Shown here in pieces: positions 51,215-61,600 of a stretch of DNA of 64,000 bases. The first letter of the stretch is position 1. Each line of letters starts with the position of its first letter. The notes beneath the pieces were generated by a model that saw nothing but the letters and a program-made list of their open reading frames with translations, had not been told where the DNA came from and searched no databases. This DNA is from Escherichia coli (GTDB lineage: Bacteria; Pseudomonadota; Gammaproteobacteria; Enterobacterales; Enterobacteriaceae). Made by a program: the position numbers and the translations under genes. The stretch lies in the NCBI RefSeq assembly GCF_050920415.1, contig NZ_CP169309.1, one strand, 5' to 3'.

Positions 51215-52066
51215 ATGTATCACGACGTCAGCTATCTGCTCTCCCGCCTGATCAACGGCCCGCTGTCGCTGCGCCAGATTTACTTTGCCAGCAGCAACGG
51301 TCCGGCGCCCGATCTTGCGTATCAGGTCGATTTTCCACGGCTGGAAATAGTGCTGGAAGGTGAATTTGTTGATACCGGCGCTGGCGCAACGTTAGTTCCC
51401 GGCGATGTGCTGTACGTTCCCGCTGGCGGCTGGAATTTCCCACAATGGCAAGCCCCCGCGACCACCTTTAGCGTGCTGTTTGGCAAACAGCAACTCGGTT
51501 TCAGCGTCGTGCAATGGGATGGCAAACAGTATCAAAATCTGGCGAAGCAACACGTCGCCCGACGCGGCCCGCGCATTGGTTCTTTTCTGCTACAAACGCT
51601 CAATGAAATGCAAATGCAGCCACAGGAGCAGCAAACGGCAAGGCTTATCGTCGCCAGCCTGCTTAGCCACTGCCGCGATTTGCTTGGCAGCCAAATCCAG
51701 ACCGCCTCACGCAGCCAGGCACTATTCGAAGCTATTCGCGATTATATCGACGAACGCTATGCCTCCGCGCTTACCCGCGAATCTGTCGCACAGGCGTTCT
51801 ATATTTCGCCAAATTACCTCTCGCACCTGTTTCAAAAAACGGGGGCCATTGGTTTTAACGAATACCTGAATCACACGCGACTGGAACACGCTAAGACGTT
51901 ATTGAAAGGCTATGACCTGAAGGTAAAAGAAGTGGCGCACGCCTGCGGCTTTGTTGACAGCAACTACTTCTGCCGTCTGTTTCGTAAAAACACCGAACGC
52001 TCGCCGTCGGAATATCGTCGGCAATACCATAGCCAACTGACAGAAAAATCGACTACTCCAGAATAA
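51215..52066 (+). CDS. yijO: AraC/XylS-family transcriptional regulator YijO, 283 aa
   Basis: ORF track; C-terminal AraC-type HTH. Confidence 0.9.
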   Translation: MYHDVSYLLSRLINGPLSLRQIYFASSNGPAPDLAYQVDFPRLEIVLEGEFVDTGAGATLVPGDVLYVPAGGWNFPQWQAPATTFSVLFGKQQLGFSVVQWDGKQYQNLAKQHVARRGPRIGSFLLQTLNEMQMQPQEQQTARLIVASLLSHCRDLLGSQIQTASRSQALFEAIRDYIDERYASALTRESVAQAFYISPNYLSHLFQKTGAIGFNEYLNHTRLEHAKTLLKGYDLKVKEVAHACGFVDSNYFCRLFRKNTERSPSEYRRQYHSQLTEKSTTPE

Positions 52067-52394
52067 GATGGGTTTGCTGCGGCGCAGAAAGCACTTTGCG
52101 CACCGCGCTCATTACCCGCTGCGGCTCACGCAGGAATGCGTAGATGCTGCATTGCACATAGCGGCAATGTTCAAATCGCTCGGCACCGGCAAGCTCGATA
52201 TCCGTAATTAACAGCGCAACATCCGCCCGACGGATATCCTCGTCCGCTAAACGATTCTCCGTCCCCAGCGCGCCCTGAGTTTCAATGCTGACGCCCCACT
52301 TCTCTAACTGGCACAACTTTTCCAGCCGTTCCGCCGCCATATAAGTATGCGCCACGCCACTGACGCAGGCGGTTACTGCCACCAGGTATGCCAT
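52053..52394 (-). CDS. frwD: PTS fructose-like EIIB component FrwD, 113 aa
   Basis: ORF track 52053..52481 is extended; start set to MAYLVAVTACVSGVAHTYMAAE (active-site Cys); 14 nt convergent overlap with yijO. Confidence 0.88.
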   Translation of the reverse strand: MAYLVAVTACVSGVAHTYMAAERLEKLCQLEKWGVSIETQGALGTENRLADEDIRRADVALLITDIELAGAERFEHCRYVQCSIYAFLREPQRVMSAVRKVLSAPQQTHLILE

Positions 52395-52395
52395 T

Positions 52396-53274
52396 TTAAC
52401 CTCCCACGGTAACCTGAAATCCGGCCCGTTCTGCCATGTCACGCATCGTTGCCACATCAGCTGACGACGGCGCAGCAACATCTTTCATCGACCATGTTTT
52501 CCCCAGCAGACGGTATTTCGGTTCGCCGTACTGATGAAACGGCAACAGATGGATCTGCCTGATATTCAGCGGGATCAGCACGTCCAGCGCCTGCTGCATA
52601 TTCTCCCGACTGAGCGTGAAACCTGGGATCAGCGGTAAACGCGGTATCACGTTGACACCCTCACTCACCAGCAAACGCAGGTTCTCCAGCACGCGCGGCA
52701 GGTTCATCTTCACCACATCCCGCGCCTGAGTTGCATCCATTATTTTTAAATCGAACAACACTTCATCGCACAATTTCGCCAGCGGTAACAGCTTGCTGGC
52801 TGGCGCGTCTCCGGCAGTTTCGATGGCGCATGACACGCCCCACAATCGCAGCCGTTGCAAAAAACGGGTAGCAAACTCCGCCTGCATTAGCACTTCACCG
52901 CCAGAAAGCGTGACGCCGCCGCCAGACGTGCGAAAGAAAATGTCATCTTTCATCACTTCCCGTTCCAGCGCGTCGAGGCTGATATCACGACCAATCCGTT
53001 CAAACGCGCCGGAGGGACATTCATCCGCATCGCGCAAACATTTCGCGCAGTGCAGACATTTCGCCTCTCTGCGTACCGTCTGGATTTTGCCGGAGATCGA
53101 CTCCGGATTAGCACACCACGGGCAAAGATGCGGACAGCCTTTAAAAAATACCACCGTACGAATGCCCTCGCCGTCATTCAGTGAATAACGCTGAATGTTG
53201 AAAATGCGCGCCACATCATCGCGGCGCGTTTCCACAACGTTACAGCTGATGCGCTGTCCGGCGGATGATGTCAT
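52396..53274 (-). CDS. pflC: Glycyl-radical enzyme activating protein PflC (radical SAM), 292 aa
   Basis: ORF track 52396..53301; start set to MTSSAGQRISCN; CPHLCPWC radical-SAM motif. Confidence 0.9.
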   Translation of the reverse strand: MTSSAGQRISCNVVETRRDDVARIFNIQRYSLNDGEGIRTVVFFKGCPHLCPWCANPESISGKIQTVRREAKCLHCAKCLRDADECPSGAFERIGRDISLDALEREVMKDDIFFRTSGGGVTLSGGEVLMQAEFATRFLQRLRLWGVSCAIETAGDAPASKLLPLAKLCDEVLFDLKIMDATQARDVVKMNLPRVLENLRLLVSEGVNVIPRLPLIPGFTLSRENMQQALDVLIPLNIRQIHLLPFHQYGEPKYRLLGKTWSMKDVAAPSSADVATMRDMAERAGFQVTVGG

Positions 53275-59812: not shown

Positions 59813-59823
59813 AAGGAAACATC

Positions 59824-60486
59824 ATGGAACTGTATCTGGACACCGCTAACGTCGCAGAAGTCGAACGTCTGGCACGCATATTCCCGATTGCCGGGGTAAC
59901 AACTAACCCGAGCATTATCGCGGCCAGCAAGGAGTCCATCTGGGAAGTGCTGCCGCGTTTGCAAAAAGCGATTGGTGATGAGGGTATTTTGTTTGCTCAG
60001 ACCATGAGTCGTGACGCGCAGGGTATGGTGGAAGAAGCGAAGCGCCTGCGCGACGCCATTCCGGGCATTGTGGTGAAAATCCCGGTAACTTCCGAAGGTC
60101 TTGCCGCCATTAAAATGCTGAAAAAAGAGGGTATTACTACACTTGGCACCGCTGTATATAGCGCCGCACAAGGGTTATTAGCCGCGCTGGCAGGGGCAAA
60201 ATATGTTGCTCCGTATGTTAACCGCGTCGACGCCCAGGGCGGTGACGGCATTCGTACGGTTCAGGAGCTGCAAGCGCTGTTGGAAATGCACGCGCCAGAA
60301 AGCATGGTGCTGGCTGCCAGCTTTAAAACACCGCGTCAGGCGCTGGAATGTTTGCTGGCAGGATGTGAGTCCATCACCCTACCCTTAGATGTAGCGCAAC
60401 AAATGCTCAACACTCCTGCGGTAGAGTCGGCTATAGAGAAGTTTGAGCACGACTGGAATGCCGCATTTGGCACTACTCATCTCTAA
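59824..60486 (+). CDS. fsaB: Fructose-6-phosphate aldolase 2 FsaB (TalC), 220 aa
   Basis: ORF track; [13 protein letters not shown] transaldolase-family fold. Confidence 0.93.
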
Positions 60487-60496
60487 AGGAGCAATT

Positions 60497-61600
60497 ATGG
60501 ACCGCATTATTCAATCACCGGGTAAATACATCCAGGGCGCAGATGTCATTAATCGTCTGGGCGAGTACCTGAAGCCGCTGGCAGAACGCTGGTTAGTGGT
60601 GGGTGACAAATTTGTTTTAGGTTTTGCTCAATCCACTGTCGAGAAAAGCTTTAAAGATGCTGGACTGGTAGTAGAAATTGCGCCGTTTGGCGGTGAATGT
60701 TCGCAAAATGAGATCGACCGTCTGCGTGGCATCGCGGAGACTGCGCAGTGTGGCGCAATTCTCGGTATCGGTGGCGGAAAAACCCTCGATACTGCCAAAG
60801 CGCTGGCACATTTCATGGATGTTCCGGTAGCGATCGCACCGACTATTGCCTCTACCGACGCACCGTGCAGCGCGCTGTCTGTTATCTACACCGATGATGG
60901 TGAGTTTGACCGCTATTTGCTGTTGCCAAATAACCCGAATATGGTCATTGTCGACACCAAAATCGTCGCGGGCGCACCTGCACGTCTGTTAGCGGCGGGT
61001 ATCGGCGATGCGCTGGCGACCTGGTTTGAAGCGCGTGCTTGCTCTCGTAGCGGTGCGACCACAATGGCGGGCGGTAAGTGTACTCAGGCAGCGCTGGCGC
61101 TGGCTGAACTGTGCTACAACACGCTGCTGGAAGAAGGCGAAAAAGCGATGCTTGCCGCCGAACAGCATGTAGTAACTCCAGCACTGGAACGCGTGATTGA
61201 AGCGAACACCTATTTGAGCGGCGTTGGCTTTGAAAGCGGTGGGCTGGCTGCGGCGCACGCGGTGCATAACGGCCTGACTGCAATCCCTGATGCCCATCAC
61301 TATTATCATGGTGAAAAAGTGGCATTCGGTACGCTGACGCAGCTGGTTCTGGAAAATGCGCCGGTGGAAGAAATCGAAACCGTAGCTGCACTTAGCCATG
61401 CGGTAGGTTTGCCAATAACCCTCGCTCAACTGGATATTAAAGAAGATGTCCCGGCGAAAATGCGGATTGTGGCAGAAGCGGCATGTGCAGAAGGTGAAAC
61501 CATCCACAACATGCCTGGCGGCGCGACGCCAGATCAGGTTTACGCCGCACTGCTGGTAGCCGACCAGTACGGTCAGCGTTTCCTGCAAGAGTGGGAATAA
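60497..61600 (+). CDS. gldA: Glycerol dehydrogenase GldA, 367 aa
   Basis: ORF track 60443..61600 is extended; canonical start [14 protein letters not shown] at 60497. Confidence 0.94.

What the first reader, a model, noticed from the sequence alone, without database searches (positions are those of the whole stretch)
51215..61600. Cryptic frw PTS / PflD-PflC glycyl-radical / PtsA-FsaB-GldA cluster is intact
All nine genes (yijO, frwD, pflC, pflD, frwB, frwC, ptsA, fsaB, gldA) are full length with intact catalytic motifs: EIIB active-site cysteines, the RVAGYSA glycyl-radical motif and the CPHLCPWC radical-SAM motif. The physiological substrate of this PTS and of PflD remains unknown in E. coli, yet the cluster is kept intact here, which argues for selection on an unidentified function.
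Basis: partly seen in the sequence, partly recalled or inferred. Interest (0 to 1): 0.35.

Follow-up and report, generated by a model that had tools for sequence, protein, structure and literature searches.

The report
Intact E. coli anhydro-sugar fermentation locus
This is the ordinary, intact E. coli gene cluster frw–pflDC–ptsA–fsaB–gldA, which is clearly kept by selection, but its job is no longer a mystery: work published in 2024 assigned it to the anaerobic breakdown of the dietary sugar analogue 1,5-anhydromannitol.

Summary
All nine genes (yijO, frwD, pflC, pflD, frwB, frwC, ptsA, fsaB, gldA) lie at 51215-61600.

dN/dS is 0.00-0.04 per gene against K-12, and piN/piS is 0.00-0.08 across 18 genomes. 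Housekeeping genes in the same window give 0-0.13. A neutral simulation predicts about 12 premature stops; none is seen. pflD is present in 5395 of 5426 complete E. coli genomes. Losses are rare and confined to lineages, for example frwC E247* in O157:H7.

Ma et al. (JACS 2024, cited in PMC12441222) report that PflD cleaves 1,5-anhydromannitol-6-phosphate to 1-deoxyfructose-6-phosphate. A PflD crystal structure exists (8YJO).

Comparative genomics here fits that pathway. The enzyme, its activase and an FSA aldolase stay together in Streptococcus, Clostridium and a lactobacillus. The Streptococcus operon also has a PTS and a GldA-like dehydrogenase.

Verdict: real, functional, already known, low interest. 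Regulation (YijO, conserved operator blocks) and the role of FrwD remain open.

The parts
51215..52066 (+). yijO, an AraC-family transcriptional regulator. It is convergent with frwD and overlaps it by 14 bp. It is the probable regulator of the cluster (inferred).
   Evidence: Pfam HTH_18 scores 77 bits against a cutoff of 33.6. RefSeq annotation agrees. dN/dS is 0.023. The gene stays next to the module in Edwardsiella, where the module sits elsewhere in the chromosome.
52053..52394 (-). frwD, a second fructose-type PTS EIIB protein (113 aa) that keeps the active-site Cys10.
   Evidence: Pfam PTS_IIB. NCBIfam NF007747 scores 225 bits against a cutoff of 153. Motif TACVSGVAHT at residue 8. dN/dS is 0.037.
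52396..53274 (-). pflC, the radical-SAM activase for PflD (292 aa). Its start overlaps the 3' end of pflD by 35 bp.
   Evidence: Pfam Radical_SAM plus Fer4_12. NCBIfam NF007483 scores 627 bits against a cutoff of 326. CPHLCPWC at 47-54 and an extra Cys cluster CLHCAKCLRDADECP at 73-87. dN/dS is 0.032.
53240..55537 (-). pflD, a glycyl radical enzyme of the dehydratase/eliminase type (765 aa). It is reported to be the 1,5-anhydromannitol-6-phosphate C-O lyase.
   Evidence: Pfam PFL-like plus Gly_radical. It differs at 12 of 765 residues from PDB 8YJO, 'Probable dehydratase PflD'. RVAGYSA at 738-744 and GCVE at 418-421. The true-PFL model TIGR01255 scores only 118 bits against a cutoff of 994. 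The function comes from PMC12441222 citing Ma et al. 2024.
55588..55908 (-). frwB, a fructose-type PTS EIIB protein (106 aa) with Cys10.
   Evidence: NCBIfam NF007783 scores 210 bits against a cutoff of 135. Motif TACPSGVAHT. The protein is identical in all 18 genomes compared, although piS is 0.14.
55923..57002 (-). frwC, the fructose-family PTS EIIC membrane permease (359 aa).
   Evidence: NCBIfam NF007787 scores 719 bits against a cutoff of 426, and TIGR01427 scores 301 bits. Pfam gave no hit at 1e-3. dN/dS is 0.020.
57003..57310 (.). Divergent frwC/ptsA control region. It contains the CRP site 57131-57146 (TGCGATCCGCCTCATA), a second CRP-like site 57186-57201 (TGTGAGACGCGTCGCA), a conserved block at about 57080-57150, and an ATTTGTC direct repeat 20 nt apart within 57215-57252.
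   Evidence: CRP ChIP-seq in ETEC H10407 lists exactly TGCGATCCGCCTCATA for ptsA/frwC (PMC4287617). Site 57186-57201 is the only match with at most 1 mismatch to the CRP consensus in the whole 64 kb. Of 310 alignment columns, 191 are invariant across E. coli, Salmonella and Edwardsiella. Identity is 72-75%, against 47-61% at third codon positions of the flanking genes. No strong sigma-70 consensus was found.
57311..59812 (+). ptsA, a fused HPr-EI-EIIA(Fru-type) phosphoryl relay protein (833 aa). It is the first gene of ptsA-fsaB-gldA.
   Evidence: Pfam finds PTS-HPr (7-84), PEP-utilisers_N, PEP-utilizers, PEP-utilizers_C (363-653) and PTS_EIIA_2 (690-829). Motifs GVHARPA, GGTTSHT, LCGELG and IPHSK are present. 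dN/dS is 0.035. The operon statement is from PMC6643234.
59824..60486 (+). fsaB, fructose-6-phosphate aldolase 2 (220 aa). In the published pathway it splits 1-deoxyfructose-6-P into hydroxyacetone and glyceraldehyde-3-P.
   Evidence: TIGR00875 scores 352 bits against a cutoff of 246. Lys85 sits in VVKIP. dN/dS is 0.026. An FSA gene sits beside PflD homologues in Streptococcus, Clostridium and Xylocopilactobacillus.
60497..61600 (+). gldA, an NAD-dependent glycerol/1,2-propanediol dehydrogenase (367 aa). In the pathway as I recall it, it reduces hydroxyacetone to 1,2-propanediol.
   Evidence: Pfam Fe-ADH scores 100 bits against a cutoff of 31. RefSeq names it 'bifunctional L-1,2-propanediol dehydrogenase/glycerol dehydrogenase'. 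It has 2 amino-acid differences from K-12. dN/dS is 0.021. An Fe-ADH gene follows FSA in the Streptococcus operon.

Best explanation
The region is the intact E. coli locus for anaerobic catabolism of 1,5-anhydromannitol (the 'radical-mediated glycolysis' or anhydroglycolysis pathway).

Proposed mechanism:
1. PtsA, a fused HPr-EI-EIIA protein, takes phosphate from PEP. It passes it through the EIIB proteins FrwB (and possibly FrwD) to the sugar as the EIIC permease FrwC imports it. The product is 1,5-anhydromannitol-6-phosphate.
2. PflC, a radical-SAM activase, installs the glycyl radical on Gly741 of PflD. PflD, through Cys419 and Glu421, opens the ring by radical C-O cleavage to give 1-deoxyfructose-6-phosphate.
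3. FsaB cleaves this into glyceraldehyde-3-phosphate and hydroxyacetone.
4. GldA reduces hydroxyacetone to 1,2-propanediol with NADH, which balances redox.
5. Expression comes from a divergent promoter region bound by CRP, probably activated by the AraC-type YijO.

Shown here: gene integrity, catalytic motifs, strong purifying selection, near-universal presence in E. coli, and conservation of the enzyme-activase-aldolase core across phyla.

Taken from the literature: the PflD substrate and product, and the initial phosphorylation by a PTS.

Inferred: that the Frw PTS is the anhydromannitol transporter, that YijO is the regulator, and what FrwD does.
For: Integrity and motifs.

Domain architecture.

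Selection:
- dN/dS is 0.00-0.037 against K-12 at dS 0.10-0.23.
- piN/piS is 0.00-0.083 over 18 genomes.
- Housekeeping controls in the same window give 0-0.134.
- Of 440 substitutions, 392 fall at third codon positions. There are 38 amino-acid changes, against about 296 expected under neutrality, and 0 stops against 11.7 expected.

Prevalence: at least 80% of the region is present in 5393 of 5426 genomes, and pflD in 5395 of 5426.

Function: PMC12441222 section 5.1, citing Ma et al. 2024. PDB 8YJO 'Probable dehydratase PflD' and 8ID7/8YJN 'Probable dehydratase YbiW'.

PflD groups with dehydratase/lyase glycyl radical enzymes, not with pyruvate formate-lyase. B12-independent glycerol dehydratase scores 640 bits and PFL 115 bits. 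TIGR01255 scores 118 bits against a cutoff of 994. The active site is GCVE, not Cys-Cys.

Gene neighbourhoods:
- Streptococcus dysgalactiae has one operon EIIA-EIIB-EIIC-GRE-activase-FSA-FeADH.
- Clostridium has GRE-activase-FSA-oxidoreductase.
- Xylocopilactobacillus has FSA next to GRE-activase.
- Edwardsiella carries the eight-gene module yijO to fsaB at a different chromosomal site.

Regulation: a CRP ChIP site in the intergenic region and anaerobic induction of the ptsA-fsaB-gldA operon (PMC6643234).
Against: I could not read the primary paper. The substrate assignment therefore rests on one review's summary, the PDB molecule names and my own recollection of the abstract.

Nothing here shows that this particular PTS transports anhydromannitol. 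The review says only 'a PTS'.

No tool tested enzyme activity. The 12 PflD substitutions relative to the crystallised K-12 protein were not mapped onto the substrate pocket.

Three of 18 sampled genomes carry a lesion in one gene, so the function is dispensable in some lineages. Two of those three were not sampled at random.

Edwardsiella lacks gldA in its module, so GldA is not an obligate part.
Confidence: 0.85

Rival explanations
1. One reading: the cluster is cryptic, with an unknown substrate, and is maintained by selection for a function that has not been identified.
For: Selection is real. Databases still carry the uninformative names 'formate C-acetyltransferase' and 'fructose-like PTS'. 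The transporter's specificity, the role of FrwD and the YijO effector are not established by anything I could access.
Against: A substrate, a product and crystal structures for PflD have been published. The downstream enzymes FsaB and GldA fit the product chemistry. Their genes co-occur with PflD homologues across phyla.
Confidence: 0.08
2. The cluster is a decaying remnant on its way to becoming pseudogenes, and it is intact in this strain by chance.
For: Single-gene lesions exist. frwC E247* is in 83 genomes, including O157:H7 EDL933. pflD Q149* is in 3 genomes. A 4-nt deletion in pflC is in 2 genomes.
Against: dN/dS is about 0.03 and indistinguishable from housekeeping genes. There are no stops, against about 12 expected under neutrality, and no neutral simulation in 1000 was stop-free. 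The region is present in more than 99% of genomes. PflD is 89-93% identical across Enterobacterales. The non-coding control region is itself conserved. The lesions are each confined to a small clade.
Confidence: 0.02
3. PflD is what its annotation says, a pyruvate or 2-ketoacid formate-lyase isoenzyme. On this reading the Frw PTS is an anaerobic fructose transporter, and ptsA-fsaB-gldA serves dihydroxyacetone and glycerol metabolism, so the genes are merely neighbours.
For: RefSeq and NCBIfam name PflD 'formate C-acetyltransferase'. PMC6643234 cites earlier work linking PtsA to anaerobic fructose catabolism. It also shows that FsaB and GldA can carry dihydroxyacetone flux when overexpressed.
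Against: PflD fails the true-PFL model (118 bits against a cutoff of 994). It has GCVE rather than the Cys-Cys pair of PFL. Its nearest solved relatives are dehydratases and lyases. The GRE, activase and FSA genes are adjacent in distant Firmicutes, in Streptococcus as a single co-directional operon with a PTS and an Fe-ADH. That is hard to explain as coincidence. The dihydroxyacetone paper itself finds these pathways only weakly used by wild type.
Confidence: 0.05

Closest known systems
E. coli K-12 yijO-frwD-pflC-pflD-frwB-frwC / ptsA-fsaB-gldA locus (b3954-b3945 region), the 1,5-anhydromannitol branch of the radical-mediated glycolysis pathway of Ma et al. 2024
   Same: Gene content, order, orientation and every gene length are the same. 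All catalytic motifs are present. The chromosomal context, ppc-eptC ... yijF-yijE-katG, is the same.
   Different: There are 440 nucleotide substitutions (4.4%) and 38 amino-acid substitutions out of 3338 residues. This is because the strain belongs to a lineage 3-6% diverged from K-12 along most of the 64 kb window. The eptC-yijO spacer has an indel.
E. coli YbiW (PflF)-YbiY-FsaA, the paralogous 1,5-anhydroglucitol-6-phosphate branch (PDB 8ID7, 8YJN)
   Same: It is the same kind of glycyl radical enzyme with its own activase and an FSA aldolase, and it is reported to give the same product, 1-deoxyfructose-6-P. It aligns to PflD over the full length (485 bits).
   Different: It is a distant paralogue at a different locus outside this window, reported to act on the gluco epimer. 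From memory, that locus encodes no PTS; this was not checked here.
Streptococcus dysgalactiae PflD homologue (PDB 8ID0) and its operon
   Same: It encodes the same seven functions: EIIA, EIIB, EIIC, glycyl radical enzyme, activase, FSA and Fe-ADH. The enzyme is about 64% identical to E. coli-type PflD (P0001 row) and has GCVE and RVAGYSA.
   Different: It is a single co-directional operon. EIIA is a separate protein rather than part of an HPr-EI-EIIA fusion. There is no second EIIB, and no AraC regulator gene is called within the 13.6 kb fetched.
B12-independent glycerol dehydratase (1R8W) and other eliminase-type glycyl radical enzymes (CutC, HypD, propanediol dehydratase)
   Same: It has the same fold family and shares the Cys-x-Glu catalytic dyad and the Gly radical motif. 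It is the best non-orthologous PDB match, at 640 bits.
   Different: Those enzymes eliminate water, trimethylamine or similar groups from small substrates. PflD is reported to open a sugar-phosphate ring by C-O cleavage. Their equivalog models (HypD, CutC, sulfopropanediol dehydratase) all score below their cutoffs on PflD.
Pyruvate formate-lyase PflB/PflA
   Same: It shares the glycyl radical domain and radical-SAM activation.
   Different: Only the C-terminal 200 or so residues align (115 bits). TIGR01255 scores 118 bits against a cutoff of 994. PflD has no Cys-Cys pair. The 'formate C-acetyltransferase' label is a legacy name.

Membership tests
Glycyl radical enzyme superfamily (PflD) | PFL-like barrel domain plus a C-terminal glycine-radical domain carrying the RVxG motif | tested here: met
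   PF02901 scores 699 bits and PF01228 scores 108 bits. RVAGYSA is at 738-744.
Glycyl radical enzyme superfamily (PflD) | A dedicated radical-SAM activase encoded next to the enzyme | tested here: met
   pflC overlaps the end of pflD. It has CX3CX2C at 47-54, and NF007483 scores 627 bits against a cutoff of 326.
PflD-type 1,5-anhydromannitol-6-phosphate C-O lyase (Ma et al. 2024) | Orthology to the characterised and crystallised E. coli K-12 PflD | tested here: met
   753 of 765 residues are identical to PDB 8YJO. NF007437 equivalog scores 1717 bits against a cutoff of 1109. The chromosomal position is syntenic.
PflD-type 1,5-anhydromannitol-6-phosphate C-O lyase (Ma et al. 2024) | Catalytic conversion of 1,5-anhydromannitol-6-P to 1-deoxyfructose-6-P | not testable with these tools
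   Known only from the literature, as summarised in PMC12441222. The primary paper is not held.
PflD-type 1,5-anhydromannitol-6-phosphate C-O lyase (Ma et al. 2024) | Genomic coupling to a fructose-6-phosphate aldolase that consumes the product | tested here: met
   fsaB lies in the cluster. An FSA gene is adjacent to homologues in Edwardsiella, Salmonella, Streptococcus, Clostridium and Xylocopilactobacillus.
True pyruvate formate-lyase (formate C-acetyltransferase, TIGR01255) | Full-length match above the curated cutoff, and an adjacent Cys-Cys catalytic pair | tested here: not met
   TIGR01255 scores 118 bits against a cutoff of 994, and the match covers only residues 575-764. The active site reads VVGCVELS.
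Fructose-family PTS (FrwB, FrwD, FrwC, PtsA) | EIIB with a phosphorylatable Cys, a fructose-type EIIC, and HPr, EI and EIIA domains with their phosphorylation motifs | tested here: met
   Cys10 is present in FrwB and FrwD. PtsA has GVHARPA, GGTTSHT, LCGELG and IPHSK. NF007783, NF007747 and NF007787 all score above cutoff. PtsA has five Pfam domains.
Fructose-family PTS (FrwB, FrwD, FrwC, PtsA) | Demonstrated sugar specificity (fructose or anhydromannitol) | not testable with these tools
   The review states only that a PTS performs the phosphorylation. Assigning that step to Frw is an inference from gene clustering.
Fructose-6-phosphate aldolase (FsaB) | TAL/FSA fold with the Schiff-base lysine | tested here: met
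   TIGR00875 scores 352 bits against a cutoff of 246. Lys85 sits in VVKIP.
Glycerol/1,2-propanediol dehydrogenase GldA | Fe-ADH family protein orthologous to K-12 GldA | tested here: met
   PF00465 scores 100 bits against a cutoff of 31. 365 of 367 residues are identical to K-12 GldA. RefSeq gives the same name.
AraC/XylS regulators (YijO) | C-terminal double helix-turn-helix domain | tested here: met
   PF12833 scores 77 bits against a cutoff of 33.6. The effector and the operator were not tested.

The most novel reading that the evidence does not exclude
The catalytic pathway is known, but its control circuit is not. Three features could together form an uncharacterised induction system that senses anhydro-sugars:
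- YijO.
- The strikingly conserved non-coding blocks between frwC and ptsA (about 57080-57150, and the ATTTGTC direct repeat at 57215-57252).
- The conserved second EIIB, FrwD. For example, YijO activity might be gated by phosphorylation or sequestration through FrwD.

Alternatively, the Frw PTS may have a physiological substrate other than, or in addition to, 1,5-anhydromannitol.
Probability: 0.25. Interest if true: 0.3.

Novelty: already known. Interest (0 to 1): 0.1.

Why it matters
It matters little as a discovery. This is a core E. coli locus whose biochemistry was solved in 2024.

It has some practical value:
- It gives quantitative evidence that the locus is under housekeeping-level constraint in a divergent E. 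coli lineage. That is consistent with 1,5-anhydro-sugars being a real nutrient in the gut.
- It flags natural knock-outs, notably frwC E247* in O157:H7, and conserved operator candidates that could be used to test transport specificity and regulation.

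Tried and rejected
1. Cluster-specific foreign import. The region is only about 95.5% identical to most E. coli, so I suspected the cluster alone was a divergent haplotype. I rejected this. The whole window shows 92-97% identity to K-12 in ordinary genes (thi, arg, ppc), so the strain as a whole is divergent. The pflD allele also has 98% relatives.

2. Reading the primary paper. The DOI is not held. Searches for 'anhydroglycolysis' and related terms found only citing papers. Two further searches failed on term syntax.

3. Sigma-70 promoter and terminator scan of 50900-61900. 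Counts were at or below the shuffled expectation, so it was uninformative.

4. Rfam scan of the region. The only hit was a sub-threshold ES036 match at 61667-61709 in the REP-like sequence after gldA.

5. A sigma-54 promoter in the conserved TGGCAGATTTGTCACA. It has 3 mismatches and lacks the -12 GC, so I rejected it.

6. Using the 90%-cluster protein search to count truncated PflD variants. The top 120 hits were all full-length orthologues, so it was no use for that purpose.

7. The 50%-representative search. It showed only that the PflD orthogroup collapses into one cluster, with the next relatives at 47% identity or less. It gave no context information.

8. A thiH frameshift, suspected from 4 alignment gaps. 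The ORF is intact at 377 aa.

Full report

Yes. So does the RefSeq annotation of strain MFDS1022581, which differs from window 50001-64000 by one nucleotide. The genes are:
- yijO 51215-52066 (+)
- frwD 52053-52394 (-)
- pflC 52396-53274 (-)
- pflD 53240-55537 (-)
- frwB 55588-55908 (-)
- frwC 55923-57002 (-)
- ptsA 57311-59812 (+)
- fsaB 59824-60486 (+)
- gldA 60497-61600 (+)

Every gene has the same length as in MG1655, an ATG start, a Shine-Dalgarno-like sequence and no internal stop.

The cited motifs are all present: RVAGYSA (PflD 738-744), CPHLCPWC (PflC 47-54) and the EIIB cysteines (Cys10 of FrwB and FrwD).
- the GCVE Cys/Glu dyad of PflD;
- the HPr, EI and EIIA phosphorylation motifs of PtsA;
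- Lys85 of FsaB.

Pfam and NCBIfam confirm each family assignment.

**2. Is intactness more than chance, and is there selection?**

The window comes from a lineage well separated from K-12. Identity is 92-97% in ordinary genes along most of the 64 kb.

- Against K-12, dS is 0.10-0.23 and dN/dS is 0.00-0.037 for the nine genes.
- Across 18 complete genomes, piN/piS is 0.00-0.083. FrwB is identical in all 18 despite piS of 0.14.
- Housekeeping genes in the same window (rpoB, ppc, the arg genes, the thi genes, murB and others) give ratios of 0-0.134. The cluster is therefore as constrained as core metabolism.
- Over the concatenated genes there are 440 substitutions, 392 of them at third codon positions, and 38 amino-acid changes.
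- A neutral simulation with the same number and type of substitutions gives about 296 amino-acid changes and 11.7 premature stops. None of 1000 runs was stop-free.

Pseudogenisation in progress is rejected.

**3. Population picture**

At least 80% of the region is present in 5393 of 5426 complete E. coli genomes, and pflD in 5395.

Of 18 genomes inspected, 15 have all nine genes intact. Three carry one lesion each:
- The frwC E247* allele is shared by 83 genomes, including O157:H7 EDL933 and Xuzhou21.
- The pflD Q149* allele is in 3 genomes.
- A 4-nt deletion in pflC is in 2 genomes.

Losses are therefore rare and each is confined to a small clade. The locus is core, not cryptic debris.

**4. 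What is it?**

[quoted passage not shown] According to the review:
- A PTS phosphorylates 1,5-anhydroglucitol and 1,5-anhydromannitol.
- YbiW and PflD respectively cleave the 6-phosphates into 1-deoxyfructose-6-phosphate, using a glycyl radical.
- This lets E. coli and many gut bacteria grow on these compounds anaerobically.

The PDB holds the matching structures: 8YJO 'Probable dehydratase PflD', which differs from this protein at 12 of 765 residues, and 8ID7/8YJN 'Probable dehydratase YbiW'.

From my own recollection of that paper's abstract, which I could not verify because the paper is not held, FsaA or FsaB then split the product into glyceraldehyde-3-P and hydroxyacetone, and GldA reduces hydroxyacetone to 1,2-propanediol.

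PflD is not a pyruvate formate-lyase. The true-PFL model scores 118 bits against a cutoff of 994. Only the glycyl-radical domain aligns to PflB, and the nearest solved relatives are glycerol and diol dehydratases. The active site is Cys-x-Glu rather than Cys-Cys.

The gene neighbourhood is conserved far beyond E. coli:
- Salmonella is syntenic.
- Edwardsiella tarda carries the eight genes yijO to fsaB as a block at an unrelated chromosomal site, without gldA.
- The Streptococcus dysgalactiae homologue (PDB 8ID0, about 64% identical) sits in a single operon: EIIA-EIIB-EIIC-GRE-activase-FSA-FeADH.
- A Clostridium has GRE-activase-FSA-oxidoreductase.
- Xylocopilactobacillus has FSA beside GRE-activase.

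The invariant core is enzyme plus activase plus FSA aldolase. That is what is expected if the aldolase consumes the radical enzyme's product. The PTS and the dehydrogenase are present in some of these loci, not all.

**6. Regulation**

This part is partly shown and partly inferred.

- The 308-bp frwC/ptsA spacer has no good sigma-70 consensus.
- It is unusually conserved. Of 310 alignment columns, 191 are invariant across E. coli, Salmonella and Edwardsiella.
- Its identity is 72-75%, against 47-61% at third codon positions of the flanking genes.
- It holds the sequence TGCGATCCGCCTCATA (57131-57146). This is exactly the site assigned to a CRP ChIP-seq peak at ptsA/frwC in ETEC H10407 (PMC4287617).
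- It also holds the only match with at most 1 mismatch to the CRP consensus in the whole window (57186-57201).
- An ATTTGTC direct repeat 20 nt apart (within 57215-57252) is a plausible AraC-type operator for YijO. This is inference only.
- PMC6643234 treats ptsA-fsaB-gldA as one anaerobically induced operon.

**7. Comparison and verdict**

The locus is a full member of the known E. coli frw/pflDC/ptsA-fsaB-gldA system. It differs only by lineage-level sequence divergence.

The selection argument is confirmed. The 'unidentified function' is not. Novelty: already known. Interest: low.

What remains open:
- the sugar specificity of the Frw PTS;
- the role of the second EIIB, FrwD;
- the effector and operator of YijO.

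Natural frwC-null O157:H7 strains offer a ready test of the first.

Noticed in passing
window 38581-41671: About 3.1 kb between oxyR and argH is absent from MG1655. It encodes a D-mannonate dehydratase ManD-type enolase-superfamily protein (39971-41245, minus strand; NF043051 scores 726 bits against a cutoff of 550) and an MFS transporter resembling D-galactonate transporters (38621-39904, minus strand; below cutoff).
   Followed up: partly
window 1-64000 (whole window versus K-12): The strain is a divergent E. coli lineage, with 92-97% identity to K-12 in ordinary genes. The only near-identical complete genome found is MFDS1022581 (animal-source food, South Korea). It differs by 1 nt in window 50001-64000, apparently a nonsynonymous change in its gldA.
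   Followed up: partly
window 49333-51066 (eptC): eptC is 98.5-99% identical to K-12 (dS 0.05), while its neighbours on both sides are about 95-96% (dS 0.13-0.23). This looks like a local recombination patch.
   Followed up: no
L014 4990-6069 (strain 124) and 83 E. coli genomes, including O157:H7 EDL933: frwC carries a GAA-to-TAA nonsense mutation at codon 247 that appears fixed in the O157:H7 lineage. This is a natural knock-out of the EIIC permease in an otherwise intact cluster.
   Followed up: yes
L004 (UTAK-18) and L007 (2013C-3342): pflD Q149* is shared by 3 genomes. A 4-nt deletion in pflC is shared by 2 genomes. UTAK-18 also has an IS621 insertion between gldA and yijF.
   Followed up: yes
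L020 4033-13389 (Edwardsiella tarda ATCC 23685): The eight-gene module yijO to fsaB lies in a completely different chromosomal context (uvrC/pgsA on one side, ato genes on the other) and has no gldA. PflD is nevertheless 91% identical to the E. coli protein. This suggests the module moved horizontally as a unit.
   Followed up: partly
window 57080-57150 and 57215-57252: Long runs of non-coding sequence are invariant across E. coli, Salmonella and Edwardsiella in the frwC/ptsA spacer. They include a TTTTGTA-N7-TACAAAA palindrome and an ATTTGTC direct repeat 20 nt apart. These are candidate operator sites with no assigned regulator.
   Followed up: partly
window 53240-55537 (annotation issue): RefSeq and NCBIfam (release of June 2026) still name PflD 'formate C-acetyltransferase' and PflC '[formate-C-acetyltransferase]-activating enzyme'. 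The protein fails the true-PFL model, and the PDB and the literature call it a dehydratase or C-O lyase.
   Followed up: yes
window 61642-61709: A REP-like repeat lies downstream of gldA. It accounts for the many extra megablast places per genome (median 17) and gives a sub-threshold Rfam ES036 match (27 bits against a gathering score of 37.6).
   Followed up: no
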